A DNA stretch of 64,000 nucleotides from Callorhinchus milii (Eukaryota), in NCBI RefSeq assembly GCF_018977255.1, contig NW_024704742.1, positions 36,148,001 to 36,212,000 on the forward strand, read 5' to 3'. Below the pieces are notes generated by a model that ran no database searches, was not told the DNA's origin, and was given only the letters and a program-made list of their open reading frames with translations. Numbering within the stretch: position 1 is the stretch's first letter; every line of letters starts with the position of its first letter. This document shows positions 10,312 to 62,545 of this stretch, in pieces. The translations under genes were made by a program, and so were the position numbers.

Positions 10312-10770
10312 GAGCCGCAGAGTTAACTCAGCTCTGTTGGTAGCACTCTCAACGCTTGAGTCAGCAGATAATGGGTTTAAGCCCCATGTTTTGGGGGGAT
10401 GGTTAGCTGGTAAGCGACACATACGGAAACCAATCATCATGCTTTCAGTGTATCCAAACCATATGCGTATTTCTCCTACACATTAAATTTTCTCTGCGTC
10501 TGGAATGGAATTCACATTCTTTCCCTGGAAGAACACATCTCACTTACCTAATTCTGGAGAGCAATGGGTGCTGTTTGGAAAGAGCCAGGGCTTGGGGATC
10601 CCTAAGTGTGTGGTGGAGGTGTGGCTGGAGTTTGACCAGATTAAAACCCATGATTTGCCCTTTAAACTTATAGCCAAGGCTAATGCTCAAGAGCTCTGCA
10701 TTGTCAGAGATGCTGCTGTCCTTCATATGTGATGGTGAACTGGGGTCCCATCTGGCTGTTGAGCTGAAAG
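10312..10770 (+). mobile_element. Old Deu-domain SINE split by a family X insertion
   Basis: Head GTTGGTAGCACTCTC..GAGTCAG..GGGTTTAAGCCCCA ends at ~10388; body CTGCATTGTCAGAGATGCTG resumes after ~10660. Confidence 0.65.
10398..10660 (+). repeat. Family X constant module, copy 1
   Basis: GGTTAGCTGG..GACACATACGGAAACC..TATCCAAA..CTTACCTAATTCTGGA..AGAGCCAGGGCTTGGGG; aligns with 28780-29156. Confidence 0.8.
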
Positions 10771-10983
10771 TCCGAATTGTTTCTGAAACAGTGAAACTGA
10801 TTCTTTCAAGTCAGTAAATTAACAGACCTCAATCAGTTTATAATGTGAAGCACAAAAAGGACATCGTGAATTTCTCCAAAGCAAAGGAAAGAGAGTTGAG
10901 CCAGTTACCCCTGACTATATTCGTGCACTTCTCAGTACTTCAATGGAGCATCACTGGTAAAAGCCTGAGAGAAACTTTGGGAG

Positions 10984-11181
10984 AATTTCCAGCTTGGTCT
11001 AGAATTATGCTATGTTATTATTTCAGAGGGCCAGAATCTTGCAAATATTTAAAGCTGGCTTTCTGCAGGATTTTTTCAGAACTATAGAAAAACAGTTTCA
11101 TTGTAAGATTTCATTTAAGAATTTGCCACTTTGTGCGGATTTGCTGAGAAAATAATGTAAGTCTAGACCAAAATGGAATTT
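10984..11181. mobile_element. Fold-back MITE-like element
   Basis: Terminal IRs AATTTCCAGCTTGGTCTAGA / TCTAGACCAAAATGGAATTT; body shares CATTTAAGAATTTGCCA with 42801-43027. Confidence 0.65.
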
Positions 11182-12542
11182 CTACTTAGGATCTAGCTCC
11201 TATTCTCAGCCAGGACACAAAACAGGGGCAAAGCTACTCCTATCGTGCACTTTATCCACCCACTCCATCTCCTGGGAACATATTCTGTATAGCTATTCTC
11301 TGATTCACAAAGGTAATAAAGTTGACTCCAAAATATCCATCCACCCATCTCTGCATCTCCACTATTCAACTGAGGGCTATCTGCCACAAAAGGCATACAA
11401 GTGGACACATGTATACCAGCACACCATGATTAGTGGTAGATATGGCTGCTGAGTTGAGCGTTATTTCTACCGTGTGTGTATACAAAGAAAGATAATTTTC
11501 TTCGTTCCAATATCTGTGTTGGTGTAAGTGCCAGCAGAACATCTGTAGACCAAAACAAAATAGCATCTGGATATATGTGCACGGTTTATACACTAAATGC
11601 AACAGAGATGATTCTGGATTCCTATTAAGACCGCTCGGGATTTTTGATGATCACACTGGAATCCTGTAAGACCGCCAGACACCTTTCCATAGCAAATTTT
11701 GGCTACCAAATGTGCATGCTGAGATTAGCTCTCATTATTAAAGTGACCAAGCTTCCACTTATCATCGCATCAGGATCCACTCCAACATGAACAGCGTTCA
11801 CGCCATGACATCAAGAGAAATACTTTGTACAGAAAACCTGTTATGACTCCATCCCCTGCTTCTCTCAGCTCACCTTTGAAAGCTCTCTACTTACACTCAG
11901 TTACCCGCCTTGTCGAGGAAATTTAACCTGATACCAGTAACTGGAACCAACACAAGAGACGCTGGATAGACTCCAACTCACCAGCATCATCTGTCACTTA
12001 TGTCAATCCATTGTTAGTAAGTGTAGTACTATGCACTGTGAAATGACTCGGATCAAATCATTACAAGGCATTCATTCTGCATTCAACCAGCTGTGTCTTT
12101 TAGTGGAATTTAGACAGATTATTTACTCCAGTGCAGCAAGCAACAACAGCTCCACTCACTGACCAATGGACCTTAGATCAGCCACAAGCCTTCACGGTAA
12201 ACGTTTCAATTAGGAGTAGGACATCAGTCTATCTAACTTACACTGCCAATTCCCCACAATTCCTTATATGTATCTATGTCTAAATCTAATAACCTTGCAT
12301 CTTTTCAATTGGCACAGGCCTTGTCCAGTTTCAAGCTGTTTACTCTGTGGCTCCATTGGTGCTTGCTCCATCTCCCTGAAGTGACCATTCTTGATTCATG
12401 AGACTGACAGTGTATGTCAGCAGGCTAGTCCAACTACAATTTATTCCTGACGTCTAATCTATTCAGCGCCTTGGGAGGTCCTCCCGACATGAAAGGCGCT
12501 ATACAAATTTTGTGTTGTATTGCAATAATAATAATAATCCTT

Positions 12543-12681
12543 GCAAAACGCAAAATACTGCAGAAGCTGGAAATCTGAAACAAAAACAGAAGTCGCTGGG
12601 AACACTCAGCAGGTCAGGCAGCATCTATGGAGAAAGGAAAGTGAGTCAATGTTTTGGGTCCACGACCTTCATCAGAACTGG
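12543..12681 (-). mobile_element. Penelope-like element terminal repeat with mutated hammerhead
   Basis: Near-identical to 27060-27201; hammerhead reads CTGATGA-AGGTC-GTG-GACCC-AAAAC-ATT (GAAA core lost). Confidence 0.85.
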
Positions 12682-12704
12682 ATATGCTATATCAAATGCA
12701 AGGA

Positions 12705-22167: not shown

Positions 22168-22410
22168 CCCAAATTTTATCTAGTGTTAGCCTATAGCAGT
22201 TTAAGACCGCGAGGATTTGAACCCAATTCTTAAATTCAGACTTAATTTGGAAACTGGGACTTTTTAAGAAATTGCAGGAAATGGCTTCCAAATTAAGACT
22301 GCGTTTGAGAATTTTCTACATTTCTGCGTGAACTTTAAATTTTAAGACTTTTTCATTTTTAAACATTTTTAAAATACTGTGAATAGGCTATGAATAGGTG
22401 ACATTTTGGG
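22168..22410. mobile_element. Fold-back MITE-like element
   Basis: AATTCTTAAATTCAGACTTAATTTGGAA / TTCCAAATTAAGACTGCGTTTGAGAATT inverted arms. Confidence 0.65.
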
Positions 22411-23860: not shown

Positions 23861-25220
23861 GAGAAAGAGGGACTTAGAGGAGGAAAAACAACAGCAAAAA
23901 TTCCCAAACATTGATAGCTTCCATTTAAAGAAAGTACCCCAGAAATGTGGATATCAGCACCTTATGAAGGTAGGTATTTAGGTGCAATAGGCATAGATAT
24001 CGGTAAGAGCCCGATATCCACAATATTCGGGACTGCACTATTGTGGGTATGAAATCAGTGGTGACATCAAATCTGTGTGCATGTGTATGTCTGTTTCCCT
24101 CTCTCTCTCTGTCCCTCTGCCTTTACATTATCTCTGTGTCTTTCTCTCCCTGTCTATTCCTGCACTTACCTGTATCAGATACCTCCTTTGGGGAAAAATC
24201 CACTACCTGGTAACCATGCACACATCTGTTCAACTAAAGATTTGCGCTGACATCGAATGACCAACTTCACGATTGTATCTGAGCCCCAATGCTGACAAGC
24301 GAACATGCAGATCGGCAGTGAGCAGTTAATTATCGTTCTACTGTACAACATCTCAAACTTACACATGGTGTTTTGACATTCATGTGCTTCAAAGCACTTC
24401 ACACGATGATTATCAGATCTATCAATTACTAAAATTAATGTACAGTATTTATTTGCAATAAATGGACTCTACTGTATTGCCTGGTATAGGCTCTTTCACG
24501 GAGTTGAAAGCAAATAAACAATCTACTCAGATGTGTTTTTCAGTGACTTGGAATTGCTGACAATAATTTGACAGCAAACACTTCCTAATTTATTTTAAAC
24601 CATCACTGACACAGAGGGAGGTTAGAGGTCAGCTTCCAGACAAGCTGAGGGGAATGCAGTCATTACTTCACTACACTAGTACCAGAGATTTCTGACACAC
24701 TGGGGATCCCAAATGATGGCAAATGAGTATGAAGGAATACGTGAAGTTAGAAGATGTCTCAGCAACAGGGTTTAATGGGCCGTCACCTCAAAAGCATTGC
24801 CGTGATATGTTGATTGGAGATAAATGATGCCAGCAGATTTTGTTCTGTACAATATCCCACCAAAAAATGGAGGAACAGAAAGACGAATCACTAGTGTCAC
24901 ATCTCTTATTGTCTTTGTATTTTATGTATCAGTGGACTTCCTCCCGACGTGAAAGGCACTATACAAACATAATTTTGTTGTTGTTTACTGAGACAAATTT
25001 CATTGCATCACCAAATCTGGGATATTCCAAACAACGTGACTAGGAATCCACACTAAACTCTGCACTGACCCATTAGGTTATACGTATGAATGAAAGATCA
25101 TATAGCAGCATAATGCTGAGAATCCCAGAGTGGCGTTTTCATTTCCTTCTGTTTGTTTGTGGATTGTTGGTTTGTTAACCATAGTGACTGCAGGTTGTTC
25201 CAGGGCTCCGAAACTTCTCT

Positions 25221-25437
25221 TGGTCTTAGCCTTGAGACCATTAAAATTTAATATTGTGTGGAATTTTTAAAAATTCATCAATTCAGTCTTAATTTGGCAG
25301 CCCATTTCCTACAGTAATTGAAAAGAACACTTAAAAAAACTGGAAAACTGGTTTCCCAATTAAGACTTAATTGAAGAATTTTCCAAAATGCCTCATAATC
25401 TTAAATTTTAACATAATGGTCTCAAAGGTTAAAACCA
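25221..25437. mobile_element. Fold-back MITE-like element
   Basis: Nested IRs TGGTCTTAGCCTTGAGACCATT / AATGGTCTCAAAGGTTAAAACCA and CAATTCAGTCTTAATT / AATTAAGACTTAATTG. Confidence 0.75.
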
Positions 25438-25444
25438 TAAAGAA

Positions 25445-25950
25445 TGTTACTGTGAAGTGCAGTGACTGTATATTTGTGGGCAATTGCGGCAGCCAATTTG
25501 CATACAGCAATATCCCACAAACAACCATGAAGTTTATCTTTATTTTATTTTATTTTATTTGGGGGATTGTTGGCCAGAACACCGGGAAAAACTCCCTTCT
25601 CTTTTCAGATCATGCCATAAGACCTTTAACATCCATCTGAGCAGGCAGAACGGACCTCAGTTTAACAGTTTTTAAGCCAGTTTTCCAGTTTTTTGAAATT
25701 CCACACAATTTTCATTTAAATGGTCTCAAGGAGCCCTCTGAAGCTTTGTGGTTAGAGCGCTCGTGGTTATTAATAATAATAATTTGGTCACTCAATCCAC
25801 AATTGTTTGTGGGACACTGCTATTATAACACCTCATCGGAAGAGAGGCACCACTGAAAATACATTGCTCCCTCGGGACTTCATTGGACTATTAATTCCAG
25901 ACTGTGAGTTCAAAGTCCTGACTTGGAACTTGACAACCTTCTAACTCAAA
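25445..25950 (-). mobile_element. Deu-domain SINE interrupted by filler DNA and a short + strand SINE piece (25677-25825)
   Basis: GCAGCCAATTTGCATACAGCAATATCCCACAAACA; GGACCTCAGTTTAAC continues at TAACACCTCATCGGAAG. Confidence 0.7.
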
Positions 25951-27059
25951 CAGGCTCTCTCTCTTCTCATTGTGCCTGGTAGTCCTGCTGTGCTATGAGC
26001 ATATGACCAACGTTTGTAGATAAATAACAAACATTCCCTCTTTCCCCGGCACTGGAATAACTGATTCTTTCAAACTATATGTTTATACTTTCAAAATAAT
26101 GATGGATGTTGACACAGAATATTTTAAAATCTCAGGCATGGAGTGAGAAGGTTTTTGACATTTTGTCTTCTTGTCCACCGAGTGCTCAGGACATGTAAGA
26201 CTAGAAATTCAGTCAAGTCTCATCACAAAAAAATGCACATTATCTACAACTCTGGTTCCAATTTACTTTGTAGCTCCCTTCAACAGGCAGGAGATCAGTT
26301 CATTTTTTTTACTTGAACCACAAGAGTGTCCATCAGTTCAGAGAAAAGATTTTTTTCAAAAATTTCCCCTTCTCCGGTATAAAACCTGCAACAAAATACC
26401 CAAATTTGGCTATAATGTTTAAGTTTGCACAAGGAAGGCAAACAGCAATGCGATCAACAAACCTTCTCCTCCGTGTGGCAGTCCATGAAAATAAAGAGCA
26501 TTCAAAACAGACGCGGAGAAATTAAGCTTTCAATGGAATTACTATAATTAAGAATACCATTCTGCCAAATTATAAGCAAGTGCAAACTTCAAGAGGAAAC
26601 TTAGCATCAGCAAAAAGAAACATGGTGTTTGTTGTCCTGCTGTACCACACACCATCTGCTCCTGAAGTGAGCGTGCTGGGAGGGAGACATTTACACAGTG
26701 CTCTCACAATCCTCATCCTAACTCTCTATCAGACACCTTCTTCCTTTCTGTTGGACATTTCAGCTGATGCTCGCTTGGATTTCATCAATGTCTCCAGCCG
26801 TTTGGGGCTGTAAAGTGCAAGGTGTGATGTGCTGCTATATTGTTGAAATTGCATTGGACCTTCTTCCTTCAACCCTCCTTCATGGCCTCCACCAGGCTAC
26901 CCATTGTGGTTGTCCCATGCCTGTTCCTCACTTGAACTAGAACATTTAATCCTAATTTACACACCTTTATCTTTAACCTTCATACGTTTATCTAATCCTC
27001 TTTTAAAAGTCTTACCAATAAGATAATGGTGAGGCCTGAAACCACCAATATTGACACTG

Positions 27060-27332
27060 GAAAACAAAATGCAAAATACTGCAGATGCTGGAAATCTGAA
27101 ACAAAACCAGAAATCGCTGGGAACACTCAGCAGGTCAGGCAACATCTATGGAGAAAGGAAAGTGAGTCAACGTTTCGGGTCCATGACCCTTCGTCAGAAC
27201 TAGGTCATGTTGGGAGGCAGAGGCTTTTAAGGACTAACAGAGAGGGGGGAGGCAGAGCAAGGAAAACAAAGGAGAAAGTGGGGTAGAGGACAGGGGATGA
27301 AAGTTTCGGGTCCACAACCATTCGTCAGAACG
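27060..27332 (-). mobile_element. Penelope-like element terminal repeat with hammerhead and a second partial hammerhead
   Basis: Same terminal sequence as the GIY-YIG-bearing copy at 53881-54625. Confidence 0.9.
27165..27201 (-). ncRNA. Minimal type I hammerhead ribozyme (PLE-associated)
   Basis: Minus strand AGTT-CTGACGA-A-GGGTC-ATG-GACCC-GAAAC-GTT-GACT: CUGANGA and GAAA cores, 5-bp stem II, stem I AGUU/GACU, GUU cleavage triplet. Confidence 0.8.
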
Positions 27333-28779: not shown

Positions 28780-29156
28780 GCATCCCAATTTTTTTTTGTC
28801 AGCCAGGTATTTGATACATGCGGAAACCAATTGCCATATTTAAGAGTATCCAAATCAAACTGAGAATTCCATGCATCCCACCTACACATGGAAAATCCAG
28901 AGATAGATTGTTGGAATAGAATCCGCACTCTCTCCCTGGAGGAACGCATCCTGATTACCTAATTCTGGAAAGTATTAGGCTTAGGTTGGCAAGAGCCAAG
29001 GCTTGGGTTCCCCAAAGTGTTCGTTTGGGTACCTCTGGAGTCTAACCAGCTAATTCCGCACAGCTTGTCATTGATATCGCTGTCTGCCAAGCTTTCCCAC
29101 TGCTTGTCCAACTAGGAAAATCCTACCCGTTAGCTTTGGCTCACGGGGTTAACAGG
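28780..29156 (+). repeat. Family X constant module, copy 2 (complete module)
   Basis: GCATCC-polyT start through GGGTTAACAGG; reverse complement of 57638-58018 and 42478-42800. Confidence 0.9.
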
Positions 29157-30630
29157 ATCTACAAAACACAGAAATTACACACTACAGTAAATCCTGTCAC
29201 ACTCTTTAAGACATCCTCCCAATGTAAAAGGCATTATAGCAAGTGTAAAGATTATTTCTTATTTATTGAACTCATTTTCAACAGACAATGAATTATCATG
29301 TTGCAATTATAATATACCTTTGTCTAAATTTGGATTCTCATAACCTCCTCCCTTAGGTTTCCAGTAACTATTTTGAATTAATGCTCTCTTGGTGGCAATT
29401 TAGTGAACATAATCTACTATTTGCCCTCTTAAATAAACCATTCCTTTTTCCCGTCAAAACCCTAGTTGCAGCTGAGAAATGTAAAGTGGCATTTTATTTA
29501 AAGTGGCAGAAAAATTACTTTGATGCACTGAAACCCATTTTTAAAATAAATAAATTACAGTGTTTCTAAGGCTGGGCTGTATTACAAGCTAAGTTGGATG
29601 CTTTATAGTTATGAGTTTAGCTCTATTAAAATTGATCAAACGTAGAATATCGTGTTGAAAGGAATGATTTTTTTTCTCCCCAAAGCATCTGTACATCCAA
29701 CCACCATTTCCTTCCAATGTCTATGAACTACTTAAGCAAGATCACTATCGAAATAGGATCCTCAACTTATTTAGACCACACAATGACTTTCAAGGGATTA
29801 TTTGGGGGCAAGGTCAGAATCCAGTTGTAACCACTCTGTTTATATGTGAAACATCAAAGGGTTACTTCTTTAAGTGGCTCAGCAGCTGGACTCCAATGCA
29901 ATTTGCTCCTGAGTCACATTTCTCAGCCCCACTTTTATGCACAGTGAAACAAGACATGAATATCCTAGTGATAACTTACTGCTATTTTTGCTTTCGTAAT
30001 CAGCATGCACAGGCATGCACATTCTGCTGCTTTTTTTTTGCTGTCAAAACATATTGTGCAATTTAATAGATTGGTAGATTAAAATTCCAATTTTACTTTT
30101 GCTCGAATAAGATTAATAGTTTTGTATGGGAATCATTGGTGCTAAATAGTTGTGAACAGTGCACTTATTACTGAATAAAAATGATAAGCACACTAATCAA
30201 ACCGTTCCAGCATAATGTATCTAAATGCATTTGAAGTATTGCTTGTCGGCACAATATTCATCAGTTTGCCTGATACTGCTGACTGCAAAGTTAGGTGCAA
30301 TATTTAATTAGCAGGCAATACTGGAATCAGCAGTCGATTCTAAAATGTATTTAAGCCTTTTAGATTGTACCACTGAGAGAATATGTATTAGCACAAATCA
30401 AAAGGTCTCAGAACTTGCCTCATATTAAGGAATGTGTTGAATTCACATAAAGTGACATTCTGTGACCTAGAAATACACTTTCTCACTTCTTCAATAGGGT
30501 GCCTCCTCGACTTAGCAAACACTCCTTTATATATAATAAGTTGTGTCTAGGCCCTTGCTACACTCCCAGTGCCTTACAGTAGATGGGACTGTCTCAGACA
30601 TTTTGCAATTGAACCAAAATACAATTATGT

Positions 30631-30900
30631 ACAGGATAGATTGTCCTAGCTGGACAAACAGCAAGAAGCTCAATGGCAAGTTATGCAGTTTTAGCTGGTT
30701 AAACTCCAGCAGTATGCCAACACACACAAAGCCTAATATTCTACGGAATTAAGTAAGCAGGGTGCATCCCCCTGGGGAGAGTGTACATTCCATTCCAGAC
30801 ATAGACATTTACATGGAACTCTCTGTCTGATTTAGATACTCTTAAGCATGGTGATAGTTTCTGCACGTGTCAAACGTTTGGCAGACCAAATAAAAAATAC
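30631..30900 (-). repeat. Family X constant module, copy 3
   Basis: GTCCTAGCTGG..GCAGTTTTAGCTGGTTAAACTCCAGCAGTA..GATACTCTTAAGCATGGTGATAG. Confidence 0.85.
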
Positions 30901-40889: not shown

Positions 40890-42800
40890 TCACGATTCCA
40901 CGTGATAAACTCCCATAAAAATTCAAGGTACTGTTTTCTTTCAAGTCTTTCATGCAGTGTGTGTCCTGGAGGTTAATGGCAAAGACACCGTGCGTGAAGT
41001 GTGTTCAGATTGCTTGGGACAAATTTCTGGTAACAGGTATCCATCTAGTGAGAACGCAACTGTCTGACGGCCAATTTATGGCTATCCTTTTGGGGAGGAA
41101 ATAAGGAAGGTATATTTGGGGATGAGCAGACTCATTCCACAGGGACTGGACAATGGAGCTGAATCAAAGCTTTGATGGACTTGATGTCCCAATATCTGGT
41201 CCAGGTAGGCCTTGAGTACTCCGGACCGTTGTTGATGATTGATCAGCCTTTTTGATTTACCAATGAAACTGGCACTGGCAGGTCACTGGTAGAGGGGAAT
41301 GCAATTCTTCCCACTCAGCTCCTGATACCTTGAAAGTCAACATCAGAATAGGGAGGCTGTCCTAGCAGCAGTTTTCTCTGGCTACAGGCAAAGTGGGGTC
41401 TCTCTAGCTTGTGGACTCCTGAACTCCTGTTTGTGGCAGTTCTCAGCAGCTGGAACTAGAGATTTGCAAGCAAGGCAAATTCTCATTTTAAATCAATATT
41501 TTGACAATCTCTACAAGCTCCAGTGATAAGCCAGGCAGGTCAGTCAATCGTCAACAGCGACTATCCTGGAGTCGTGTCAATGTGACTGGTTACACTGATG
41601 TGTTTGCCTACTTTTCAAAGAATGGAGAATTCATACAAGTTCCGAACTTAACCCACTTAGGTGAGAATTTATAGCCGTTGTCAATTTCAGTAACAGACGC
41701 ATCCAGAAGCCTTACAGGACCTGACCAGTTCAAGGACTCTTCTTATCTGGACGTGAAACTGATATGAAGCAAGTAAAGTAGAGCACACTTGCGCTTGTTG
41801 TATGTACCAAAAATAACAAAGTATGCTGAGAATTATTTGGTTTATAAGCCATTTGGACAATCTACAGCCAGGATTTCCATTTAAACACTGAGGACGGCAA
41901 ATCAATCACAGACCCTGACCCGCATTTTAACACTCGGCTGCCCGTGATTACATCTGACCTTTGACCTACAGTGGGGTTTTCTATGAGGTGGTTAACCACA
42001 TTTATGACATTGTGACATTTTATATCCATGTGTTTTGCATTCTTCGGCGATCCACAATAAGTCTCTCGCAGTTTAGTTCGCAGCATTTCTGAGGTTGTAT
42101 GGAATTTGTATGAATTCTTCATTCGTTGAAAAGTAGAGAAACACAATAGTGTAATCATAGGCGAGGACATGACTCCACTGTTGATGATTGACCAGCCTGA
42201 CCGGATTATCAACGGAGCTTGGAGAGATTGACCAAATAATGATCTAAAATGGTAATTTGCTTTCAGATCTCCAGTTCCAGCTGTTGAGGGACTTCCCAAA
42301 ACAGAATTTCTGTAATTCTGAATTATAAAACCCATCGTAAAGGGGACCAGACTTTGCCTGTGACCAGAGGAAACTGGTGTGACTTGGCATCTAGGTCAGT
42401 CTGCCTATTTTTCAGGGTTTCAGATAGCCTAATGAGAGTCTGATGAGTCTGAAGTTTCATGTGGGTCTAGATTTACTCTGTTAATCCTGTAAGACAAAGC
42501 CCTAACAGGTAGGGTGGTCCTAGCTGGATAAGCAGCGGGAAAACTTGCCAGACAGTAATATCAATGGAGTTTTCTATGCGGTTTTAGCTGGTTAGACTCC
42601 AGCAGTACCCCAACACACACTCTTGCCAACCTGCGCCTAATACTTTCTGGAACTAGTTAAGCAGGATGTGTCCCTCCAAAGAGAGTGTGCATTCCATTCC
42701 AACGATCCATCTCTGGGATTTCCATGTGTAGGTGGGATATATGGAATTCTGAGTTTAGCTTGGATACTCATAAGCATGGATTTCAGCATGTGTCAGACAC
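40890..42800 (-). repeat. Family X composite copy 4: constant module (42478-42800) plus several paralogous cassettes in both orientations
   Basis: 42478-42800 matches the other X modules; 41080-41335 aligns with 57385-57645; 41345-41660 is an inverted paralog of 42095-42410. Confidence 0.75.
41862..42335 (-). pseudogene. 157-codon ORF in a family X cassette, product unknown
   Basis: Longest non-L2 ORF in the track; comparison with its inverted paralog shows several synonymous differences in this frame (CTC/CTA, CCG/CCA, GGC/GGT, AGT/AGC, CGA/AGA, AAA/AAG). Confidence 0.45.
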
Positions 42801-43027
42801 AATTCCAGAGAGCCCAGAATTTGGTAATTCAGTCTTAACTTTAAAGACAGTTTTTTGTAATTCCTAAAAGAATTAACAGAAACCTGACTTCAAAATTAAA
42901 GTTGCATTTAAGAATTTGCCAAATTCTGCATGCTCTAAAATGTTACATAAATAGAGTAAATACTACATACGTAGACTACATAAATGCTATTTAAGTAGCC
43001 TTAATCTAGACCCAAGTGGAATTTTAC
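42801..43027. mobile_element. Fold-back MITE-like element abutting the family X terminus
   Basis: AATTCAGTCTTAA, CATTTAAGAATTTGCCA, terminal TCTAGACCCAAGTGGAATTTT as at 11162-11181. Confidence 0.65.
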
Positions 43028-46835: not shown

Positions 46836-47137
46836 CTTTGCAAGCGAGAGACCTGAGTTCAATTCCAGGCAGGGCGAAACCTTGGGCAAGTTTCCTTACT
46901 CCACACGCCTAATAATAATCCCTCCAAAAATCCCCCCAAAACAATAATAAATTGGTCATTTTCAATCTATTACTGTTTGTGGGACATTGCTGTGCGCAAT
47001 TGGCTGCCGCGTTCGCCCACAAATATACAGTCAATTCACTTTACAATGTGTTCTGTGAAGCGCTTTGGGACGTCCTCCCGACGTGAAAAGCGCTATATCA
47101 AATGCAAGGATAATTATTATTATTATTATTATTATTA
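46836..47137 (+). mobile_element. SINE subfamily A, slightly 5'-truncated
   Basis: Near-identical to the reverse complement of 47274-47595. Confidence 0.95.
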
Positions 47138-47273: not shown

Positions 47274-47595
47274 AATAATAATAATAATAATAATCCTTGC
47301 ATTTGATATAGCGCTTTTCACGTCGGGAGGACGTCCCAAAGCGCTTCACAGAATAGACTGTAAAGTGAATTGACTGTATATTTGTGGGCGAACGCGGCAG
47401 CCAATTGCGCACAGCAATGTCCCACAAACAGTCAGGGATTGAAAATGACCAATTTATTATTGTTTTTGTTTTGGAGGGATTATTATTAGGCGTGTGGAGT
47501 AAGGAAACTTGCCCAAGGTTTCGCCCTGCCTGGAATTGAACTCAGGTCTCTCGCTTGCAAAGCGAGTGCTCTAACTACTGAGCTACAGGACTCCA
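47274..47595 (-). mobile_element. SINE subfamily A, full length
   Basis: Complete head, core and tail. Confidence 0.95.
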
Positions 47596-48342
47596 GCCAG
47601 TTAGGAACTTGGGAATCTTGTTTGACCCTCAACTGTCCTTTCTCCCCCATATCCGTGCCATGACTTGCTCTGCCTTCCTCCACCTTTGCGACATTGCCCG
47701 ACTCTGCCACTGCCTCAGCCCTCAGGCTGCCAAAACACTCATACAGGCACTCATCACCTCAAGGCTCCACTACAGAACCTCCCTCCTTGTCGGCCTCCCC
47801 AACTCTTCCCTCCACAACCTGCAGATCATCCAGAACACTGCAGCTCCTGTCCTCTCCTGCACCAGGCTCTGTGACACCATCACCCCACCCTCGCCCAGCG
47901 CTATTGGCTCCCGATCCCTCATAGAGTTCAAAATCATCATCCCCACTTTCAAGGCCCTTCCACGGCCTTACCTCCTCCTACATCTCCGACCTGCTGACTC
48001 CCTATCAATTTGTCCGCTCCCTCCACTCAGCAGGCTCTGGCCTGCTCCAGGTCTCCCGCCCGACCCACTCTACCATCGGTGGTCGGGCTTTCAGCCTCTC
48101 TGACCCCACTCTTTGGAACTCCATCCCACAATCCCTTCACCTTGCACCCTCACTTGCCTCCTTCAAGGCACGACTCAAGACTCTCCTTTTTGACCGTGCC
48201 TTCAGCCACCCTCCTACCCCTCTGCCCTCCCTCATCCCAACCCTATCCCCCCACACTCGGGTCCTGATCCCTGACTGTTCAGGGCCTTGGGACGTCCTCC
48301 CAACGTGAAAGGCGCTTTACAAATATAATTTTGTTGTTGTTG
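47596..48342 (+). mobile_element. L2 LINE 3' fragment (RT C-terminus and tail)
   Basis: ORF 47609-48103 GILFDPQLSFLPHI..AFLHLCDIARL..LIQALITSRLHY..LQIIQNTAA; tail CCTTGGGACGTCCTCCCAACGTGAAAGGCGCT..(TTG)n. Confidence 0.95.
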
Positions 48343-50042
48343 GCGTTATGGAGTACAAAAGGAAAGAATTTATTTGACTTTTTATTGTTTTCATTGAAAA
48401 TAGTTATCAAACTTTTTTAGCATTTGTGTGAAATATTCTGTCGCTTGCATGCAATGCCATTATGATGAAAATGGCATTCTAGTCTTCTAACTTTTCTCCC
48501 TCGCTGATCCAAATGGAAAATGTTTCCTTTTGGATTTCAAAAATATTTCAAAAAAGGAAATATTTGTTTTTATAAAGGCGATGTTCCTGTGCTTTATTTT
48601 GTCTCAGTTTTTTTTGGTCCACTTTGAGCTGCTGCAGCCTCCACACTATTTCCCTCTTCCTGAGAGATAAGACCAGTGGCCTCTCCAGAGCCTTGTGAGC
48701 AGCAAGAGGCACTTTTGTCAACACGTAGATCTTTCTTCCACCAGAAGGGGGTGCTCCATCTTACAATGCAGCTGCAAAACCAGCCAATGATTGAGAAGTT
48801 TTGGCTCTTTTAATGCTGAAATGATTTTACATCACTTCCAACAATACAATCACTCAAAGCACTCGTATTAGATCCCTACTGTTGCCTGTTTGGCATTTCC
48901 CATCAAATGAACAGAAAAACAAATGTTTCCCATTGTACACGAGTCATGCCAGCTAAATCAGAACCATCGGAACTGCCTGACAATGAGATTTTTTGTCCGA
49001 ATTAATCCAGGTCGCCCCAATTTCAATTGATTCTGGTTGATAGCTCATCCAGAATGAGGTCAGCCAAGACTTGGCATATAACGCTGTTCTGTTAGGAAAG
49101 TCATCTTGCCAATGGCTCATATAACAATGTTGGATGTTGACTACATCTTTACCACAAAGATCACATTTTCCACCACATTCAATGTGTTTTCACAGTTATT
49201 TTCCAATTGAAGATCTGTGCCCTCCTGTCAGTCCTGGGCCAAAGTATTGCACCAGGATCAATAAAACACAACATCTGGGATTCTCAGGCACATTGAACAT
49301 TGTTTTTAGAATCACAGTGTTATAAACATAAGATAATTCCTTAAACAAAGCACAAAGAGATATGCAATACCGTGATCTTGTTTAAGTAGTTTCTGTTCTT
49401 TTCTGCACTTCTGTTACTGTGATATCTTGGCTTTATTCCATTACTATTGATTTTTAACAGACTGGATACTATCAAACTAGATTGAGTCCCTAATATTTGA
49501 AAAAACATGCCTTAGGTGCTATACGAATGTAATTTTATTATTGTTGTTATCAGTGAATACCCATTGTTTTTGTTCTCTTTTTACTGCTTTTCCTAGCTCC
49601 CAGATTGAAGTAAAAAAACAGCAGATGTGGGAATGAACTCTGCCAGCCACAATATAGTATTTGAACTTCCACAATTAAACATCAGGCAGAATTTTGTAGG
49701 AGAGGTTCACATTGCGAGAGAAAAAACAGCATTGTATTTTCCCCACTTCTGAGGTCAGATGTAACAGTTTGAAACAGCAGTAACTCCACTCCATCAATCC
49801 AGTTTCTTAAGTAGTGTCAGCCTAGTCTATGAACTCATGTCTGGATTCGGAACTGGAACACACAACTCAAAGCGAGAGTGCTACCAAATGAGCTGGCCGT
49901 CATATTAACAGGCAAAAAGGAACAGTTGAGGTGAGGAAGAAAGGAAGCATTAAGTGAAGGAAAGCATCAATGAAAGCCTTCTCCATAACCTAATCTAACC
50001 AATAAGATTTGCCATTCTCAAAACATAGCTAAAGATCTATAA

Positions 50043-50330
50043 TAATATTAATAATCCTTGCATTTGATATAGCGCCTTATCACATCGTTGAAACGTCTCA
50101 AAGGGCTTCACAGGATATACTGTGAAGTGGATTGGAATGTCTATTTTGTGGGCAAAAAGTAGCAGCCAGTTTGCACACATCAATGCCCTACAAATAAACA
50201 GAATCAGTGACTACATTTTAATTTGGGGGATTGATGGCCAGACAATGAAACACACCCCCAACACCACATTGGAGTGCCAGCTTAGACTATGTGACTCCAA
50301 GTCCCAAAGTGGAGCTTGTACCCAGAAGCC
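50043..50330 (-). mobile_element. SINE tail and Deu-SINE remnant
   Basis: TAATAATCCTTGCATTTGATATAGCGCCTTATCAC; GCAGCCAGTTTGCACA. Confidence 0.75.
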
Positions 50331-51218
50331 GGTCTCACGATTCAAGCCTCCCTCCCCCTTTCACAGACCAAAACTGGCATTTTACTCCAAAGTCATCCTG
50401 CAGGCCAAAAACAACCCAAAGACTCTGTTTTCCACTGTCCATCACTTCCTCCATGCACCCCCTCTAACCCCCACTATCCTCACATCAAACGCCAAGTGCA
50501 AAGAGGTCCTAGACTTCTTTGCCTCAAATTGAAAACATCTGCTTGGCTGCATCGTTCTCTCCCCCATGTCCCCTTCCACCCCACCCAGACCATCCACACC
50601 GCCTTCTCCCTCCGCCACGGCTCCTGCCACTCCCCCTTCCTTACACTCCTTTGCCCCCATTTCTCCCTCCTCCTCTCAACCACAATCACCCGGGTAAAGT
50701 TCACCACTGGCTGCCTTGAACTCTCCCCACGCAGCTGCTGGTCACTCAACACCCCTTCTCTCCCCACCTCAAAAAATCCCCAGCTCCACTATTCAAAAAA
50801 TCCACCTCATTCAGAACTCTGCTACCCGCATGCTGACCCAGACCAAACTCTGTACCCACACCTCACCAGTTCTGGCCAGGCTCCACTGGCTCCCCATCAC
50901 TGAATGGATCGACTTCAAGATCCTCACGCTCATGTTCAAATCCATTCACTCCCTGGTACCTCCCTACCTCTCCAACCTCCTCATTCCCCAATCCACTATC
51001 CGGCACTTCCGCTTGACTAGCACTGGCCTCCTGCTCGTCCCTCACCCCCTCCGCCCCACCATCAGAGGTCGTGCTTTCAGCTACCATGCCTCAAAACTGT
51101 GAAACACTCTCCCTCAATCCTTCTGCCACCCGGCTCGGAGTTATGCTCTGCCACTGTCAAGCATTCTGAGACACTACCCTGCGTGGAGGGCCATATATAA
51201 ATGCAAGTTGTTGTTTTT
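50330..51218 (+). mobile_element. L2 LINE, internally deleted ORF2 and tail
   Basis: YSKVILQAKNNPKTLFSTV and IQNSATRML..SPVLARLHWLPITEWIDFKIL..PPYLSNLL..GRAFS. Confidence 0.9.
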
Positions 51219-52704: not shown

Positions 52705-52851
52705 GTAACAAAAACAGAAGTCCTGACGAAGGGTCGTGGACCTGAAATGTTGACTCACTTTCCTTTCTCCATAGATGCTGCCTGACCTGCTGAGTGTTCC
52801 CAGTGACTTCTGTTCATGTTTTCAGATTTCCAGCATCTGCGGTATTTTGTG
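52705..52851 (+). mobile_element. Short Penelope-like terminal repeat with hammerhead, flanked by a 12-bp TSD
   Basis: AGTC-CTGACGA-A-GGGTC-GTG-GACCT-GAAAT-GTT-GACT at 52719-52755; ATTTTTTTCTAG at 52693-52704 and 52852-52863. Confidence 0.85.
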
Positions 52852-53880
52852 ATTTTTTTCTAGTTTTTTATTTTCAGTAAGGTCACTGGGTTTATTTAGT
52901 GTCTTTGCACTGATATGCTACAGAAACAAACTCACTTAAGCTGGGATGTTAATTCATCACCATAAATTGCTCCACCCTGTCACCTAAACTATCAAACATA
53001 AAAGACTCCAGTGTTTTATGTTTGACTCCAGTGTTTTACACCTCAAAGTAGACACAAGATTGTAAAAACACAACTAACAATTGTATTTCTCAAGCCAATA
53101 CACTAGTCACTTCACACACACAAACACACCATTGCAGCTTACTGAAATCCGACTAGAAAAAGATGTCTGTGATTTCACATGCTTGCACTTTAATTGTCAT
53201 TCTCATTTGCTATGTACCACATTTTCTATCACTCATCTTCACCAATTAGCAGACACACAGGAACAGGTGAGCTGGTGATTTTTGCCTGGTTTTGCAAAAT
53301 TACATTTTTGCAGTTGTGCTATTCCATGACTCTCTTTCCCAGCGAAGCTGTCTAACAGTGTTGCTCCACAGCTCTCTAACTGCATTGCTTAGTGCCTCTT
53401 TCACAGTGCTGCTCTCTGCCCCAACGCTGATCTCTAAGTGTTGTTTTATGATTCTCTCACTGTACTGTCCTATGGCTCACTGCATAGGAAATGTAGTTAT
53501 GCATCTAATCCTATTCCTTTTCTTGCAGGTCAGGCAGAAGCAGCTCATTGGCATTGTGTATCTGGTTGATTTTAGCTGAATTATATACTGCGACAAGACC
53601 AGACACCAAGATGACCTGGAAAAAATTGAGACTGTGACAGAGTAAACTAGTTCTTTGATCATTCAGGAGCCTGACATGCAGGGAGACCCCTGGCTCGGAT
53701 TAAGAGTCTCCGACCCCAAATCCTTGAGAACTTCCAGAAGCAGTTCCTTTTCCTAGTTCAGGACTGTGCAATCTCTTCCGAAGAGACCACACACATACAC
53801 CACACATGTGCACACATTTACTTGCCTATACCTAAAGAATACAAATGTGGTTTGAGAGAAACCAAGGCATGAGAGATCCT

Positions 53881-54625
53881 AAACAAAAACAGAAGTCGCT
53901 GGGAACAGTCAGCAGATCAGGCAGCATCTATGGAGAAAGGAAAGTGAGTCAACAACAACATATATAAAATTACATTTATAGAGCGTCTTTCACATCGGGA
54001 GGACCTCCCAAGGTGCTGATCTCTAAGTGTTGTTTTATGAACGTTTCGGGTCCACAACCCTTCCTCAGAACTGGGGCATGTTGGAAGTGAGAGGTTTTCA
54101 AGGACTGTCAGAGAGCTGGGCGGCAGGGCAAGGAAGACAAAGGAGAAAATTGGGTAGAGAACAGGGGATGATGGGTTAAAGAGGTGTTAATAATGCAAAA
54201 CAAAAGGGAGGAAATTGAACAAAACAGGCAGACCAGAGAGAGAAAAGATGTGTCTGGGACTCAGATGATGTGATAATGGTCACAGAAGAGGAGGAAGGAG
54301 AAGATGAGTTGTTAAGGTCTGAAATTGTTGAAATCAATATTGAGGCCAGAGGGCTGTAAGGTCCCTAGCAGATAAATGAGGTGCTGTTCCTCGAGTTTGC
54401 GCTGTCCTCATTGGAACAGCGTAGGAGATCATGTTTGGAGAGGTCAGAGTGGGAGTGGGAGGGAGAGTTGAAGTGGCAAAACAACGGAAGCTCAAGATTG
54501 TGCTTGCGGACAGAACGGAGATATCTGGTAAATCGGTCACCCAATCTGTGTTCGGTATCCCCAGTGTAGAGGAGACCACATCGTGAGCAGTGAATGCAGT
54601 GAACTACATTGGTGGTAGTACACGT
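53881..54625 (-). mobile_element. Penelope-like retroelement 3' part, with nested L2 tail at 53951-54040
   Basis: GIY-YIG remnant, 3' UTR, hammerhead and terminal repeat shared with the 12543, 27060 and 52705 copies. Confidence 0.9.
54313..54625 (-). pseudogene. PLE GIY-YIG endonuclease domain remnant (frameshifted)
   Basis: Manual translation TCTTTNVVHCIHCSRCGLLYTGDTEHRLGDRFTRYLRSVRKH..CHFNSPSHSHSDLS..//KLEEQHLIYLLGTLQPSGLNIDF, with the CxxC-YxG-T and P.GLN motifs of Penelope endonucleases. Confidence 0.9.
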
Positions 54626-56380: not shown

Positions 56381-56399
56381 AAGTCTCATACAGCTTCCG

Positions 56400-56620: not shown

Positions 56621-56854
56621 CTGATTCAGGAGCACCATCAATTGAGCTGGACTAACACCACAATTTATATTAATTTCCTATTTTGCTTCCTTGCTTCATA
56701 TCCACAGTCTCCATTTCAGTCGGGATGTGAGGATGATCCTTACCAGAAGACACTAGCACATGCCAAGAGAGTGGCTCGATTGTCAGACTGCCATAATCCC
56801 AAGTGTTTTTTGAAGAATGAGTTTTGACTGAACTAAAATCAAACAAAAGGCTTG

Positions 56855-57073
56855 AAAATCCACCTTGTCTCAGCCTTTCAGACCATTTGAACTTAAAATT
56901 GCACGAAATAAAGGAAAATTCTTAAATTCAGTCTAAATTTGAACTCTGTTTTTCCACAGTTCTTAAACACAACCAGCTTCCATTTTAAGAGTGAATTTAT
57001 GATTTTTCATAATTCTGCATGTTTTTAAATTTAAGATGGAATAGTCTTAAAAGATAAGATTAGATGGAATTTT
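56855..57073. mobile_element. Fold-back MITE-like element
   Basis: AAAATCCA..TGGAATTTT ends; AAAATTCTTAAATTCAGTCTAAATTTG core. Confidence 0.65.
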
Positions 57074-57109
57074 GGTCTTAAGGTGTGTTGTGACAAATCG
57101 TCTTCTGTT

Positions 57110-58018
57110 AGCAGCTTGTATAAGAGATTTCAACATGCACATCAGACTGTGAAATGTGAAGGTGATTTGTCTGTGGGGCCACAATAATACAGTATTAACA
57201 ATGGTGTGCTATATATTCAGCCTCAGTACTTTTAAGATCTCCACACTTACCCATATCTACAAAAGCAACATGGCCAGATTCAATGACAGTCTTTGCAGAT
57301 TTCATTCAACCAACTGTCTGGTTTCCTTTATCAGAGATAGAAAGGCTATCAACAAATACAGTGAATGTTAAATCCTTATCTCTGGATGGTATCCTCCTTG
57401 AGGGGGAGGTAAGAAGGGTCTCCTTGGAGCTGAACTGGCTCCAAGGTGACATGCCTGGCAATGGAATGTCAGAATTGAGCCAGCCCCCTGTGGTGGTCTC
57501 GGTAGTCTGGTTCCTGAGCCAGGCTGGTCCTCAGTATTCCAGGGCACTGCTGATGATGGCACCGCCAGCCTGGCTCATTGGCAGGACCCGTATGGGCAGA
57601 CCAGTCACTGGCGGCAGGGAGTCATCCCACTCAACTCTTGTTAACTCTACAAGCCAAAGACCTAATGGGTAGGGTGGTCCTAGTTGAACAAGCAGCGGGA
57701 AAGCTTGTCCGACAGCAATATCAATGGCAAGCTGTGCAGTTTTAGCTGGTTAGACACCAGCAGTTACCCCAACGCACACTCTGGGGTTCTCCACACCTCG
57801 GGTTTTGCCAACCTGCGCCTAATACTTTCCAGAATTGGGTAAGCAGGATGCGTCCCTCCAGGGAGTGATTGCGCATCCCATTCCAACAATCTATCTTTGG
57901 GATTTCCATGTGTAGATGGGTTGCATAGAAATCTCAGCTTGGTTTGGATACTCCTAGCATGGTGATAGGCTTCTCCATGTGTCAGACACCCAGCTAACCA
58001 AAAAAAACTCTGGATGCA
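57110..58018 (-). repeat. Family X copy 5: constant module (57638-58018) plus one cassette
   Basis: Module matches the other copies; cassette aligns with 41080-41335; long mostly open frame on the minus strand. Confidence 0.8.
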
Positions 58019-59269
58019 TTTTGTTTAGCAAAAAGGCTGACCATATTAATCATATTTTGGAGGTTCCTCTGTGGAACCTGTCTATGTATTTAAAGTTGAT
58101 CGTGCAAAAACACAGCAGGGACGTTAAAAGCGAAAGATTGTCAAAAGCCTGAAAATATTGTTATCCATTATGAAAGTCTGACATATGGGACATATCAAAA
58201 CACAAGTGCTTAATTTTCATTCCAGAGTTTCCTTCTGTTTTAGCTTAGTTGTTTTTCTCATTCTCTCGGTCTTGTACTTTATTGTAATGGTACAGCATAG
58301 AGAGCAGGTAAACTAAACATGCTGTGTCTCTGGGTTTCTTCATCGTTCTCACAACCAAAACAAGGTAATATGATCACAGTCACTAGACATTGAGTAAGAA
58401 CTGGCAGAACTTACCTCATCTAATAACTGCACAGCTGGAATGATGCCCTTCCCTGGATTCAGACCCATAAGCAACAACAACAACAAAATTACATTTATAG
58501 AGCGCCTTTCACGTCCGGAGGACGTCCCAAAGTGCTGAACAATCAGGTGTCGGGGCCCACACACAACACTCCAACTGTTAACTGGGGCTCAATTTGTGTT
58601 TCTATCTATCTTGCTCCGACAGGAGGGCAGCAGCAGCCCTGAAATTCAAACTTAAAAACGTGCCAATTGTTGTGCAGGTACACCCTGATGCAAGTGACAG
58701 CGTTACTTCCTCTGCTGTCAGGCTTTGCAGAACTGCCACCAAACTAGGTTCAAAAGTACACGTGAACCTACAATGATCTGCTGCCCTACTTTAGTGGCAC
58801 ACAGTTCCAAAGCAATTCCAAACCCTAATAGGACTACTTATTGCTGACACGGAGGACAATCTGCCATTTTCACGTCAACTTCAAACAGGATTGTTTAGTT
58901 AAGGAACCTGGAAGTACAAACCACACTGGCTGATGGCGATGCCCTCTACTGTGACCTATCTTTGGGCCCGAGCTTCCGCGAGTTGACATGACGTACTTCC
59001 AACAACAACAACAACTTGCATTTATATAGCACCTCTCATGCAAGGTAGCATCCCAGAGCGCTTCCAGTTACCAGAAGGAGTTCCCACATGGATCCCATCT
59101 GAAATTGCCGAATTTACACCCCAATATCTCTACACAATCTTCTTTCTAACAAACAAATATTTTATTAATATTCAATTGACCCAAAATATCAGTGTGGTAC
59201 AGTACTTTTTTTTCTTTATTTTACTGCCATTAGTTTTATGTGTCATGCAAGGCGGGGGTCTCATGGATT

Positions 59270-59733: not shown

Positions 59734-60892
59734 TGGCAGGCTGGCAAAACATATCCCAAAACTGAATTATGCTCAACATGTGAATAAAAAACATTGAGAA
59801 AAGGTGTCATACATGACATTAGTATGTTAGGAAATGTGAGGTAAAAAGTTTTTTTGAGAGAAGAGGAATTAAATTGCTTGACATTGAGAAATTGATCATA
59901 ATACATGAATTCAAAACACTTGGACGTCTACGTATCCTCACTTCCCACATGAAGCACTGGTTGAACTCAACAGTTCCCCTCTGCGCCTCAGACAAAGGCT
60001 ACCAGAGATGTGTGTGTATGAACGGATTAGGTAAACACATCAATTTAGTAGTGGATCCACGCAACCGGCTAGCATTTGCCTTTAGCTAGGATGCCTTCGT
60101 AGCATTGAAGAACCGCTGAGTCTGTCACTGTAAGGATAGAGAGATTAACAATCCGCAATTCACTTCAAACCTTGCCTGACACATTTCAAAGAAAGATGAG
60201 CTGTCGGTAATCAAAACTGCAGCATTTTTACAAAACCCACTGAAGGTAAAATGCACACCATTTAGTTTCCACATTACCCATCCCAACGTCCTCAAAACCC
60301 CAAAATGCACCTACCTCAAACATAGGAGAGGTGGCCTTTTCTGGCAACGTGCAGCCCAGCAGCTCTGCAAGAAACTTTGCCATATACAAACAGTGGTATT
60401 GCTTCCTTATTGAGAGTGAATGCTAGTCTATGAACCTCACACTGCTAACACACACTGGGCTCTTTCCTTATTGGAATTCTCTATAATAATTCCTTGTTCT
60501 TTGTAATCCGGTCTACATGCCTGTTAAAAAAATACAATTGAATTGCTCATGTTCTGAACAGCTAAAGCACTGGCTGGATATCTAGTAAAATGGAATAAAT
60601 CACCAGCACGGTCCCCTTGCTTTGATGTCTGCTTGCAGCCTTTCCTGCTGAATGTCACTCTTTCTATAGTAAAGTGAAGAACCCTCCAAAGGGGGTGTAT
60701 GACGGACGGCACCTTTAGCATTCAACGTCTCTACTTGCAGGGGTTGTTGGCTTCAGAAGCGTTTTAATTCCTTTACGGTTCAGAATGTGTTAAAAGGGAA
60801 ATGCCATTCGCAGCGTTTCATTTCTGTTCATCAATGCTCTTTCCTATTCATTATTATTATTATTATTTCCTACTTCAGAAAGCAAACAATAC

Positions 60893-61765
60893 CGACAACA
60901 ATTTGCACTTGCCTAGCATCTTTCAAAAAGAGACACCAACTCAAAGCACTTTACAAAGACTGATGGCGGGAGGGAAAAAGGGTTGGAGGGGTTGGGGGTG
61001 AGGGGGGGGGGAAAGCGACTGAAGGTGCAGTCAAAGGGTTTTTTAGGGTTTTGAAAGAAGGGGGAGGAGGCAAAGGGATTTTTGAAAGAGTATTCCAGTG
61101 GATGATGGCAATGTGGCTGAAAGCTCCCCAGCCAAATTGTGGGGCGGAGCGGGCAGGAGCTTTAAGCGAGCCAGAAGTGGCAGAACTGAAGAAGTGGCCA
61201 GCATGTGGGGTCACAGGAGAGCTTAAAAGTAGGGTCGGGTAAAGCCGTAGTGATATTTAGAAGTAAAGACGAGTTTCTTAACGTTGATTTGCTAAGTGAT
61301 AGGGAGCCAGTGGAGCAGAGTGAAAGTGGGGGTGATGGGCTTGGGGAGACTAATGATATGGGCTACAGAGTTCTGGATGGCCTGGAGCTTGCGGAGAGTG
61401 GAGTTGGGAGGCCAGTGAACAAGGTATTGAAAAAATCAAGTCTGGAGGTGGATGAGGGTTTTTGGTTGCATTGGAGGTGAAGGAGTGGCAGTGGCAGGTG
61501 ATGTTGCAGAGATCAAAGAAAGTGGACTTGGTCAAAAACTGGATGGAAAGCTCAAAGGAGAACAGAAGATTGAACAAATACCAATGTTCAGCACAGGCTT
61601 CACGTGTTGGAGTGGAGACTGATATGATACATTCAGGATCTGAGAATAGCTGACAGGAGCCAAGCAGGATCACCTCAGTACTGTCAACGTTGAGTTGGAA
61701 ATGTTAATGCTCATCCAGGACATGATGCATGATACGCATTCTGTCAGAGCAGCAGTGTTCGTGGA
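60893..61765 (-). mobile_element. L2 LINE 3' fragment
   Basis: Antisense ORF2 remnants (GWGAFSHIAIIHWNTL; FDLCNITCH) and ACAACAATTTGCA tail. Confidence 0.8.
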
Positions 61766-62269
61766 GTAAATTATGACAATTATGTTCATTATTGTTCTGT
61801 ATTTTTATCCAAATCATGAAAATCAATACCATGTGTTCATAGTTAATTCAATAAGTAAGGGTTCCCTCATTTAATTTATAGTATCTCTTATTCAATCAAG
61901 AAGACACATTGCAGCAAACATAATTCATTAACACCAGCATAGTAGGTAGCAGCAAGTAACTGAGAGTGAGAGGCTGACAGATCAGCAGAGGTAATTGAGG
62001 TTATCCTGATAAATTACTCCACAATTTTGCTGACATGAATCAGTGGCTAACTATCAATTTATCAACGGTACCTAATCCCCCACCCCCCACCTGCTTCCCA
62101 ACACACACACACACACATTTGTACTACTTGCATAGAGAAGCGACGTCATTCCAAACTGCTGCAAATATTATAACAAGGAACAGTCACCATAACCTACACA
62201 AAAAGGGACTTCAACCTTTCTTTGATTTGGATAGATTTTTCTTGTATTTTTCCCTTTACTTCCTGTCTT

Positions 62270-62545
62270 CGATCAACCGGTTGTCTGACACATGTAGAAA
62301 TTACACTATGGTTATGAGTATCCAAAGCAGACTGAGAATTCCATATACGTATGCCCCTTCCACATAGAAATTTCCCTGAGTCTAGAATAGAATGTGCACT
62401 CTCTCCCTGGAGGCATACGTCCTGCTTTACCTAATTCCAGGTTGTCAAGAGCCAAAGCTTGGGGACCCCAAAATGGGAGTTTGGGGATAGTTGAAGTTTA
62501 ACCAACTAGAACTGCTTAGCTTGATTTTGAGAGCCAGGCTGGCTA
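62270..62545 (+). repeat. Family X constant module, copy 6
   Basis: TGTCTGACACATG..GAGTATCCAAA..ACTGAGAATTCCAT..CACTCTCTCCCTGGAGG..AAGAGCCAAAGCTTGGGG. Confidence 0.85.

What the first reader, a model, noticed from the sequence alone, without database searches (positions are those of the whole stretch)
10398..62545. Unrecognised family X module, six copies in 64 kb with a shared outer end
Seen: copies at 10398-10660(+), 28780-29156(+), 30631-30900(-), 42478-42800(-), 57638-58018(-) and 62270-62545(+). All end near the palindrome GTGTC-T-GACAC, preceded in the best copies by GCATCC-polyT-GGTTAGCTGG; the inner ends stop at or before S unless a cassette follows. The module has no tRNA head, no L2/CR1 tail, no TG..CA LTR ends and no TIRs that I can find. 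A by-eye consensus has one open frame of about 78 codons (MRKPITMLKSIQTKLRIPCIPPTHG..GGTHPAYLILESIRRRLARAKAWG..). Inference: either a poly(A)-ended retroposon whose coding potential is antisense, or a Helitron/Helentron-like or recombinase-mobilised element with a T-rich end and terminal hairpin.
Basis: partly seen in the sequence, partly recalled or inferred. Interest (0 to 1): 0.7.

Follow-up and report, generated by a model that had tools for sequence, protein, structure and literature searches.

The report
Old poly(A)-tailed retroposon copies, elephant shark
The six repeats are decayed, front-truncated copies of an abundant retrotransposon that runs on the opposite strand; they look like the non-coding tail of a LINE or a short passenger derived from one, so they are ordinary genome debris, apart from a possible conserved RNA fold.

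Summary
The six copies are real. They are the 3' part of a unit of about 620 nt that reads on the opposite strand. The longest copy (57389-58007) ends in an A-tract and is flanked by a 9-bp direct repeat. A second copy has a 10/11 duplication, and five are 5'-truncated. Public contigs from three coded organisms stack thousands-fold deeper on the unit than on its flank. Gene models that read into it are Callorhinchus milii. The shared 'GCATCC' is target DNA, the palindrome is intact in 2 of 6 copies, and the 78-codon frame is at chance level. Helitron, DIRS, LTR, Penelope and tRNA-SINE hallmarks were not met. Target-primed retrotransposition is about 85% likely. Open question: is it the untranslated tail of a longer LINE (0.5) or a free non-autonomous unit (0.35)? 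The scan found what is probably this family before, on other DNA (e1-7812807), and called it an L1/Tx1-type 3' UTR; I could not confirm that. Diverged relatives suggest a three-helix pseudoknot, but one null test supported it and another did not.

The parts
57389..58007 (+).
   Evidence: Depth 45,676-205,148 over 57420-58011 against 7.9 on the flank in run X1; boundaries set by the direct repeat
57380..57388 (+). 5' copy of the 9-bp target-site duplication
   Evidence: Exact direct repeat with 58008-58016; chance 0.0013 under a position-matched null
58008..58016 (+).
58000..58007 (+).
   Evidence: Sequence
57471..57638 (+). Candidate structured domain: H1 57471-78/57631-38, H2 57479-83/57570-74, H3 57547-56/57575-84. 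H2 crosses H3, giving a pseudoknot
   Evidence: a stricter null is not passed
28789..29157 (-). 5'-truncated copy with an A9 tail, inserted into an old Deu-type tRNA SINE; possible decayed duplication of about 8 nt
   Evidence: Flanks are collinear with the SINE profile, positions 133-179 and 194-295; 5' end maps to 57636
30632..30899 (+). 5'-truncated copy with an A-rich tail; duplication at 30621-30631 / 30909-30919 (10 of 11), extendable to about 17 nt with one indel
   Evidence: null 0.00095
42475..42800 (+). 5'-truncated copy, tail lost, no duplication found
   Evidence: 5' end maps to 57634
10398..10668 (-). 5'-truncated, more decayed copy; no duplication found
62268..62545 (-). 5'-truncated, more decayed copy; only a weak A-rich flank match
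41083..41365 (+). Diverged relative (59%) of the 5' half; starts at the same point as the longest copy
   Evidence: E=1e-12
42101..42379 (+). Remote relative sharing a core of about 55 nt (helix H3) with 57538-57599
   Evidence: E=5.7e-5 to the two-copy profile
41366..41643 (-). Second remote relative, 71% identical to 42101-42379 and inverted to it
   Evidence: E=6.6e-4

Best explanation
These are dead copies of a non-LTR retrotransposon, made by target-primed reverse transcription. Inferred: a LINE endonuclease nicked the DNA, reverse transcription primed on the A-tail and usually stopped early, and repair left the duplication. Most likely the 620 nt are the hairpin-rich 3' untranslated tail of a longer autonomous LINE, possibly of L1/Tx1 type; that label comes from an earlier scan note and was not verified. 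The TPRT class as a whole is about 0.85 likely; the confidence given here is for the tail-of-a-LINE version.
For: A-tail in 3 of 6 copies. Duplications in 2 of 6 at null rates near 0.001, and a possible third. Five of six copies lack the 5' part. One copy interrupts a SINE. Contigs stack about 5,800-26,000 times the flank depth in X1, and similarly in runs of organisms B and C; this is an order of magnitude only. Non-coding. Three diverged types in one window share only part of the module, as tails of related LINE families would. A third copy, seen only as a translation, seems to keep matching for a few codons into the 5' direct repeat, which would fit truncation at a microhomology. Note e1-7812807 reached this reading for a ~630-bp hairpin repeat in the same genome (a lead, not support).
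Against: No ORF2 remnant was found upstream of either copy that has the 5' part. The longest copy and the 41 kb relative start at the same point with unrelated upstream flanks (score 29.5 against null 29.1), and the translated third copy shares that boundary motif; random truncation would not predict this. The duplications in the 57 kb and 28 kb copies do not begin A-rich, unlike the mammalian L1 target preference (recalled). Three of six copies show no duplication. That e1-7812807 is the same family is inferred from size and description; sequence look-ups returned nothing.
Confidence: 0.5

Rival explanations
1. A free-standing non-autonomous retroposon of about 620 nt with no small-RNA head. 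It would be either a bipartite 5'+3' deletion derivative of a LINE (RIME/NARTc, R2 SIDE or Vingi-N type) or a passenger RNA, transcribed from its own fixed 5' end and copied in trans by a LINE protein.
For: Shared 5' start in two window copies, and probably in a third copy. A target duplication closes the unit at 619 nt. The 5'-most bin is as deeply covered as the rest. Loose ends before 57416 are long and poorly agreeing (0.40-0.41).
Against: Internal indel-rich sites show similarly low agreement (0.46-0.49), so the loose ends do not prove a terminus. No partner LINE was identified. A complete HDV-like ribozyme is not supported: the P1 partner is 6/7 at best, there is no hit once listed majority letters are applied, and 19 of 60 shuffles also hit. 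PMC5786205 (section 23) lists only RTE, Ingi, Vingi and R2 as sources of ORF-less bipartite elements.
Confidence: 0.35
2. A Penelope-like pseudo-LTR fragment family.
For: Retro-type insertion with duplications; inverted neighbours at 41-42.8 kb; this genome holds many Penelope stubs.
Against: No hammerhead core in any of 7 regions on either strand, while a different repeat in the window has clear ones. No GIY-YIG match. An A-tail is present.
Confidence: 0.05
3. A Helitron/Helentron-type or tyrosine-recombinase (DIRS, Crypton) non-autonomous element with a T-rich end and terminal hairpin.
Against: Duplications of 9-17 nt are present. The ends are not TC...CTRR, and there are no terminal inverted or split direct repeats. 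Truncation is one-sided. The palindrome is intact in only 2 of 6 copies.
Confidence: 0.05
4. A solo LTR of an LTR retroelement.
For: The size of about 620 nt fits.
Against: The ends are not TG...CA once the duplication is removed. The duplication is 9 nt or more, not 4-6. There is no AATAAA in the longest copy. An A-tail and 5' truncation are present.
Confidence: 0.02

Closest known systems
5'-truncated 3' ends of poly(A)-tailed LINEs, L1/Tx1 group (label from scan note e1-7812807; family traits from established knowledge)
   Same: A-tail, variable target duplication, one-sided truncation, long non-coding 3' region
   Different: No ORF2 link was shown here; two duplications do not start A-rich; the 5' boundary recurs
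Bipartite ORF-less non-autonomous LINEs: RIME and NARTc (PMC4035085, passages), R2 SIDE (PMC3414825, abstract), RTE and Vingi derivatives (PMC5786205, section 23)
   Same: Short, non-coding, no Pol III head, TPRT marks, possibly a fixed 5' end
   Different: No partner LINE was found, and a full HDV-like ribozyme is not supported
CmiSINEs (SINE2-1_CM, SINE2B-1_CM) and SacSINE1-CM of C. milii (PMC5499810, parts 1-2 of 6 read)
   Same: Same host, high copy number, similar age range; one X copy sits inside such a SINE
   Different: Those have tRNA heads and an L2-derived tail; this family has neither
Pseudoknot-hinge-stem of vertebrate A-clade R2 3' UTRs (PMC11601368, passages)
   Same: A pseudoknot kept across divergent non-coding retrotransposon sequences; functional analogy only
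   Different: The R2 fold lies in the last 65 nt and R2 is rDNA-specific; the candidate here lies 370-540 nt from the tail in a dispersed repeat and is unproven

Membership tests
Non-LTR retroposon (TPRT) | A-rich or simple-repeat 3' tail | tested here: met
   3 of 6 copies; decayed in 2, lost in 1
Non-LTR retroposon (TPRT) | Variable-length target-site duplication | tested here: met
   2 of 6 clear, 1 possible, 3 none
Non-LTR retroposon (TPRT) | Fixed 3' end, truncated 5' ends, no TIR or LTR | tested here: met
   5 of 6 lack the 5' part; TIR test negative
L1/Tx1-type LINE 3' end | Continuity with an ORF2 (APE, RT) upstream | tested here: inconclusive
   Nothing upstream in the window; no genome held
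L1/Tx1-type LINE 3' end | A-rich target start as in mammalian L1 (recalled; may not hold for Tx1) | tested here: inconclusive
   Not seen in 2 of 3 duplications, ambiguous in the third
L1/Tx1-type LINE 3' end | Match to a classified Repbase/Dfam entry | not testable with these tools
   No such library is available here
Bipartite non-autonomous LINE | 5' and 3' parts homologous to the ends of an autonomous LINE | not testable with these tools
   Partner unknown; no genome held
Bipartite non-autonomous LINE | Fixed 5' end shared by copies | tested here: inconclusive
   Two window copies share it, probably a third; contig data cannot decide
HDV-like ribozyme head | Nested double pseudoknot P1-P2-P3-P1.1-P4 | tested here: not met
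   Loose descriptor hits in both copies, but 19 of 60 shuffles also hit; P1 is weak; no Rfam match
SINE1/2/3 | 7SL, tRNA or 5S head with Pol III boxes | tested here: not met
Helitron/Helentron | TC...CTRR or subterminal inverted repeats, and no duplication (recalled) | tested here: not met
DIRS/Ngaro/Crypton | Inverted or split direct terminal repeats, recombinase, no duplication (recalled) | tested here: not met
Penelope-like element | Hammerhead core in the pLTR or a GIY-YIG remnant | tested here: not met
LTR | TG...CA ends, 4-6 bp duplication, polyadenylation signal | tested here: not met

The most novel reading that the evidence does not exclude
A free-standing, headless retroposon of about 620 nt with some 10,000 or more copies. 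Its 5' half folds into a three-helix pseudoknot kept across family members only 59% alike, and the fold acts as an undescribed self-cleaving ribozyme or a LINE-protein binding signal. It would be a SINE-like class with no small-RNA ancestor, possibly carried by a clade outside the four known to yield ORF-less bipartite elements.
Probability: 0.12. Interest if true: 0.65.

Novelty: new member of a known kind. Interest (0 to 1): 0.25.

Why it matters
If the best reading holds, it matters little: old retroposon tails fill vertebrate genomes. Two practical points remain. Four C. milii protein models in UniRef end in translated copies of this repeat, so those C-termini are probably annotation errors. 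The candidate pseudoknot, if confirmed on many copies, would be a conserved RNA signal in a vertebrate retroposon and could be tested directly.

Tried and rejected
Whole-genome work was not possible: no genome is held. Pfam gave no credible match on 60 of the window's 286 ORFs of 60 aa or more, on 30 read-through frames or on 9 upstream frames. Rfam in E-value mode gave only chance miRNA, snoRNA and lncRNA matches. ESM Atlas and PDB sequences gave nothing usable. A sense frame of the 28 kb copy had no long relatives, and the 177-codon frame at 41865-42395 had none. No copies were found in viral or JGI metagenome contigs. No RNA holder was listed, so expression is untested. I first read the 57 kb and 41 kb heads as an HDV-like ribozyme and dropped it. 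Hammerhead: rejected. The 3' half shows no covariation (term +0.17), so a stringent 3' stem-loop is not shown. I first read the 41-42 kb inverted pair as a long-TIR transposon, then as an ORF start; both were dropped once it matched the module on the other strand. The bacterial promoter scan is irrelevant to this host. Ten literature searches found no description of this family. Repbase Reports and most subscription papers are outside the library, and I opened no supplements.
Full report
Setting. The window is about 40% GC animal DNA, dense in tRNA-Ala SINEs and LINE fragments; I read the SINEs as Deu-type and the LINE pieces as L2 from recalled motifs. A search of 1.84 billion proteins with one read-through frame of the repeat gave 5 hits. 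Four are Callorhinchus milii gene models whose ends run into copies of the repeat, and one is an unnamed Logan protein. Earlier scan notes also call this genome elephant shark. No assembly was available.

Observation. The six copies are real: profile E<=4e-68, next hit E=1.1, and 64-82% pairwise identity. Several details do not hold. The palindrome is complete in 2 of 6 copies. The 78-codon frame is open in 2 of 6 copies. Random 380-mers give such a run in 43% of 2000 trials. Only 3 of 51 gap runs are multiples of three, and minority letters fall 82/102/92 across codon positions.

True extent. I laid public contigs from 4 of the 24 listed runs on 57050-58150 at 80% likeness. In run X1 the depth is 7.9 on the flanks and 45,676-205,148 from 57420 to 58011, a ratio of about 5,800-26,000. 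The tool warns that summed depth is not a copy number, so I take this only as order 10^4. Runs of organisms B and C show the same plateau. X1 lists 80 differing places over about 600 nt (13%; 58 transitions). On the SINE clock of PMC5499810 (about 1.0-1.1 x 10^-3 per site per million years; parts 1-2 of 6 read) that is roughly 120-130 million years, a rough figure from one copy.

Polarity and ends. A position-matched null gives 0.0013; a loose null over 46-nt windows gives 0.02. The 30 kb copy has an A-rich tail and a 10/11 duplication (0.00095 and 0.03 under the same two nulls). The 28 kb copy has A9 and interrupts a SINE: the flanks match SINE positions 133-179 and 194-295, leaving about 8 surplus bases that may be a decayed duplication. 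The other three copies show no convincing duplication. 'GCATCC' belongs to the target DNA in both copies that have it. Five copies lack the 5' part. Two start at 57634-57636, at the base of the predicted helix H1; that would fit a reverse-transcriptase stall but was noticed after the fact. This pattern is the signature of target-primed reverse transcription (established knowledge). Helitron, DIRS, LTR, Penelope and Pol III SINE features were tested and not met.

Relatives. 41083-41365 is a 59% relative of the 5' half and starts at the same point as the longest copy. The inverted pair at 41366-41643 and 42101-42379 shares a core of about 55 nt with it (E 6e-5 and 7e-4). 41.0-42.8 kb thus holds four family-related pieces; how they came to be arranged is unresolved.

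RNA structure. Comparing the 57 kb and 41 kb copies gives three helices, H1, H2 and H3, with H2 crossing H3. 44 of 46 cells pair, 7 of 23 pairs change on both sides, and the five one-sided changes give G-U pairs on the sense strand. H3 keeps 8-10 of 10 pairs and an 18-nt loop in 4 of 4 relatives, and the loose-end consensus of other copies also fits it. RNAalifold picks H2 unprompted. A null asking for 8 of 9 Watson-Crick pairs in both copies with two double changes was met by 0 of 150 shuffles, against two such helices observed. Against this: a null that greedily picks the best three helices with G-U allowed is matched by 170 of 300 shuffles; H3 covariation in four sequences is reached by 32 of 500 shuffles; and two of three listed majority letters inside H1 break pairs unless their partners also change, which cannot be seen because 54 of 94 rows were not shown. 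The structure was also chosen on these same sequences. It is suggestive, not established. A full HDV-like fold is not supported. The longest copy folds at z -1.7 on the sense strand and -4.1 on the other strand, on 20 shuffles each, which does not favour the sense strand.

Tail or free unit. Until I favoured a free bipartite element of the RIME/SIDE/Vingi-N kind (PMC5786205 passages and section 23; PMC4035085 passages; PMC3414825 abstract). Note e1-7812807 describes a ~630-bp hairpin repeat with 7 copies in 64 kb elsewhere in this genome and files it as the 3' UTR of an L1/Tx1-type LINE. That moved my odds, but I could not see its evidence or match its sequence. My own tests found no ORF2 upstream, which is expected if these copies are truncated. 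The shared 5' start argues for a free unit. The apparent run of similarity into the 5' direct repeat in P0003 (protein-level inference) argues for truncation at a microhomology. I put the tail reading at 0.5 and the free unit at 0.35; both could coexist.

Comparison and verdict. It works like a poly(A)-tailed LINE 3' end or a LINE-dependent passenger. Membership in L1/Tx1 or Vingi is not shown. Ten literature searches (listed under Tried and rejected) found no description. I also read passages of PMC3747384, PMC4350176, PMC7245038, PMC5753468, PMC13708176 and PMC11601368, and no supplements. Repbase and Dfam could not be checked, and a family this abundant may well be listed there. Verdict: new member of a known kind, interest 0.25.

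Noticed in passing
window 53650-53885 (element sense on - strand): Possible seventh, very decayed relative: it aligns along the 28 kb copy with score 54 against a shuffle maximum of 44, but is within the null against the 57 kb copy; E=1.1 and 0.18.
   Followed up: partly
window 27197(-), 27328(-), 52723(+), 54068(-): Four minimal hammerhead cores in a separate repeat family (12544-12679, 27056-27331, 52719-52864, 53873-54171), probably the Penelope-like tails noted earlier in this genome.
   Followed up: no
proteins P0002, P0003, P0005, P0006: UniRef C. milii models (carboxylesterase, COP9 subunit 5, an uncharacterized protein that looks TRIM-like, a gelsolin-like protein) end in translated copies of this repeat; probably gene-model errors, though exonisation is not excluded.
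   Followed up: partly
window 56854-57082, 25210-25457, 22200-22345, 10982-11183, 42826-42950: An AT-rich, imperfectly palindromic family of about 200-250 bp, MITE-like.
   Followed up: no
window 41078-42800: Four family-related pieces in 1.7 kb in +, -, +, + order; the two remote relatives sit head to head 457 nt apart. Independent insertions or an old inverted duplication.
   Followed up: partly
window 268-592, 47274-47595, 37960-38267, 46836-47131: Young tRNA-Ala SINE copies, 87-96% alike, lacking a stretch of about 60 nt present in older copies such as 27954-28327; they resemble the CmiSINE/SacSINE1-CM families of PMC5499810 but were not assigned.
   Followed up: no
window 47582-48360, 50092-51130, 60866-61599: Mutually similar, decayed LINE ORF2 ends that I read as L2 from recalled motifs; no Pfam match on the ORFs tested.
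   Followed up: no
window 63285-63515 and 63627-63715: A separate imperfect palindrome of about 220 bp and a 26-nt tandem repeat.
   Followed up: no
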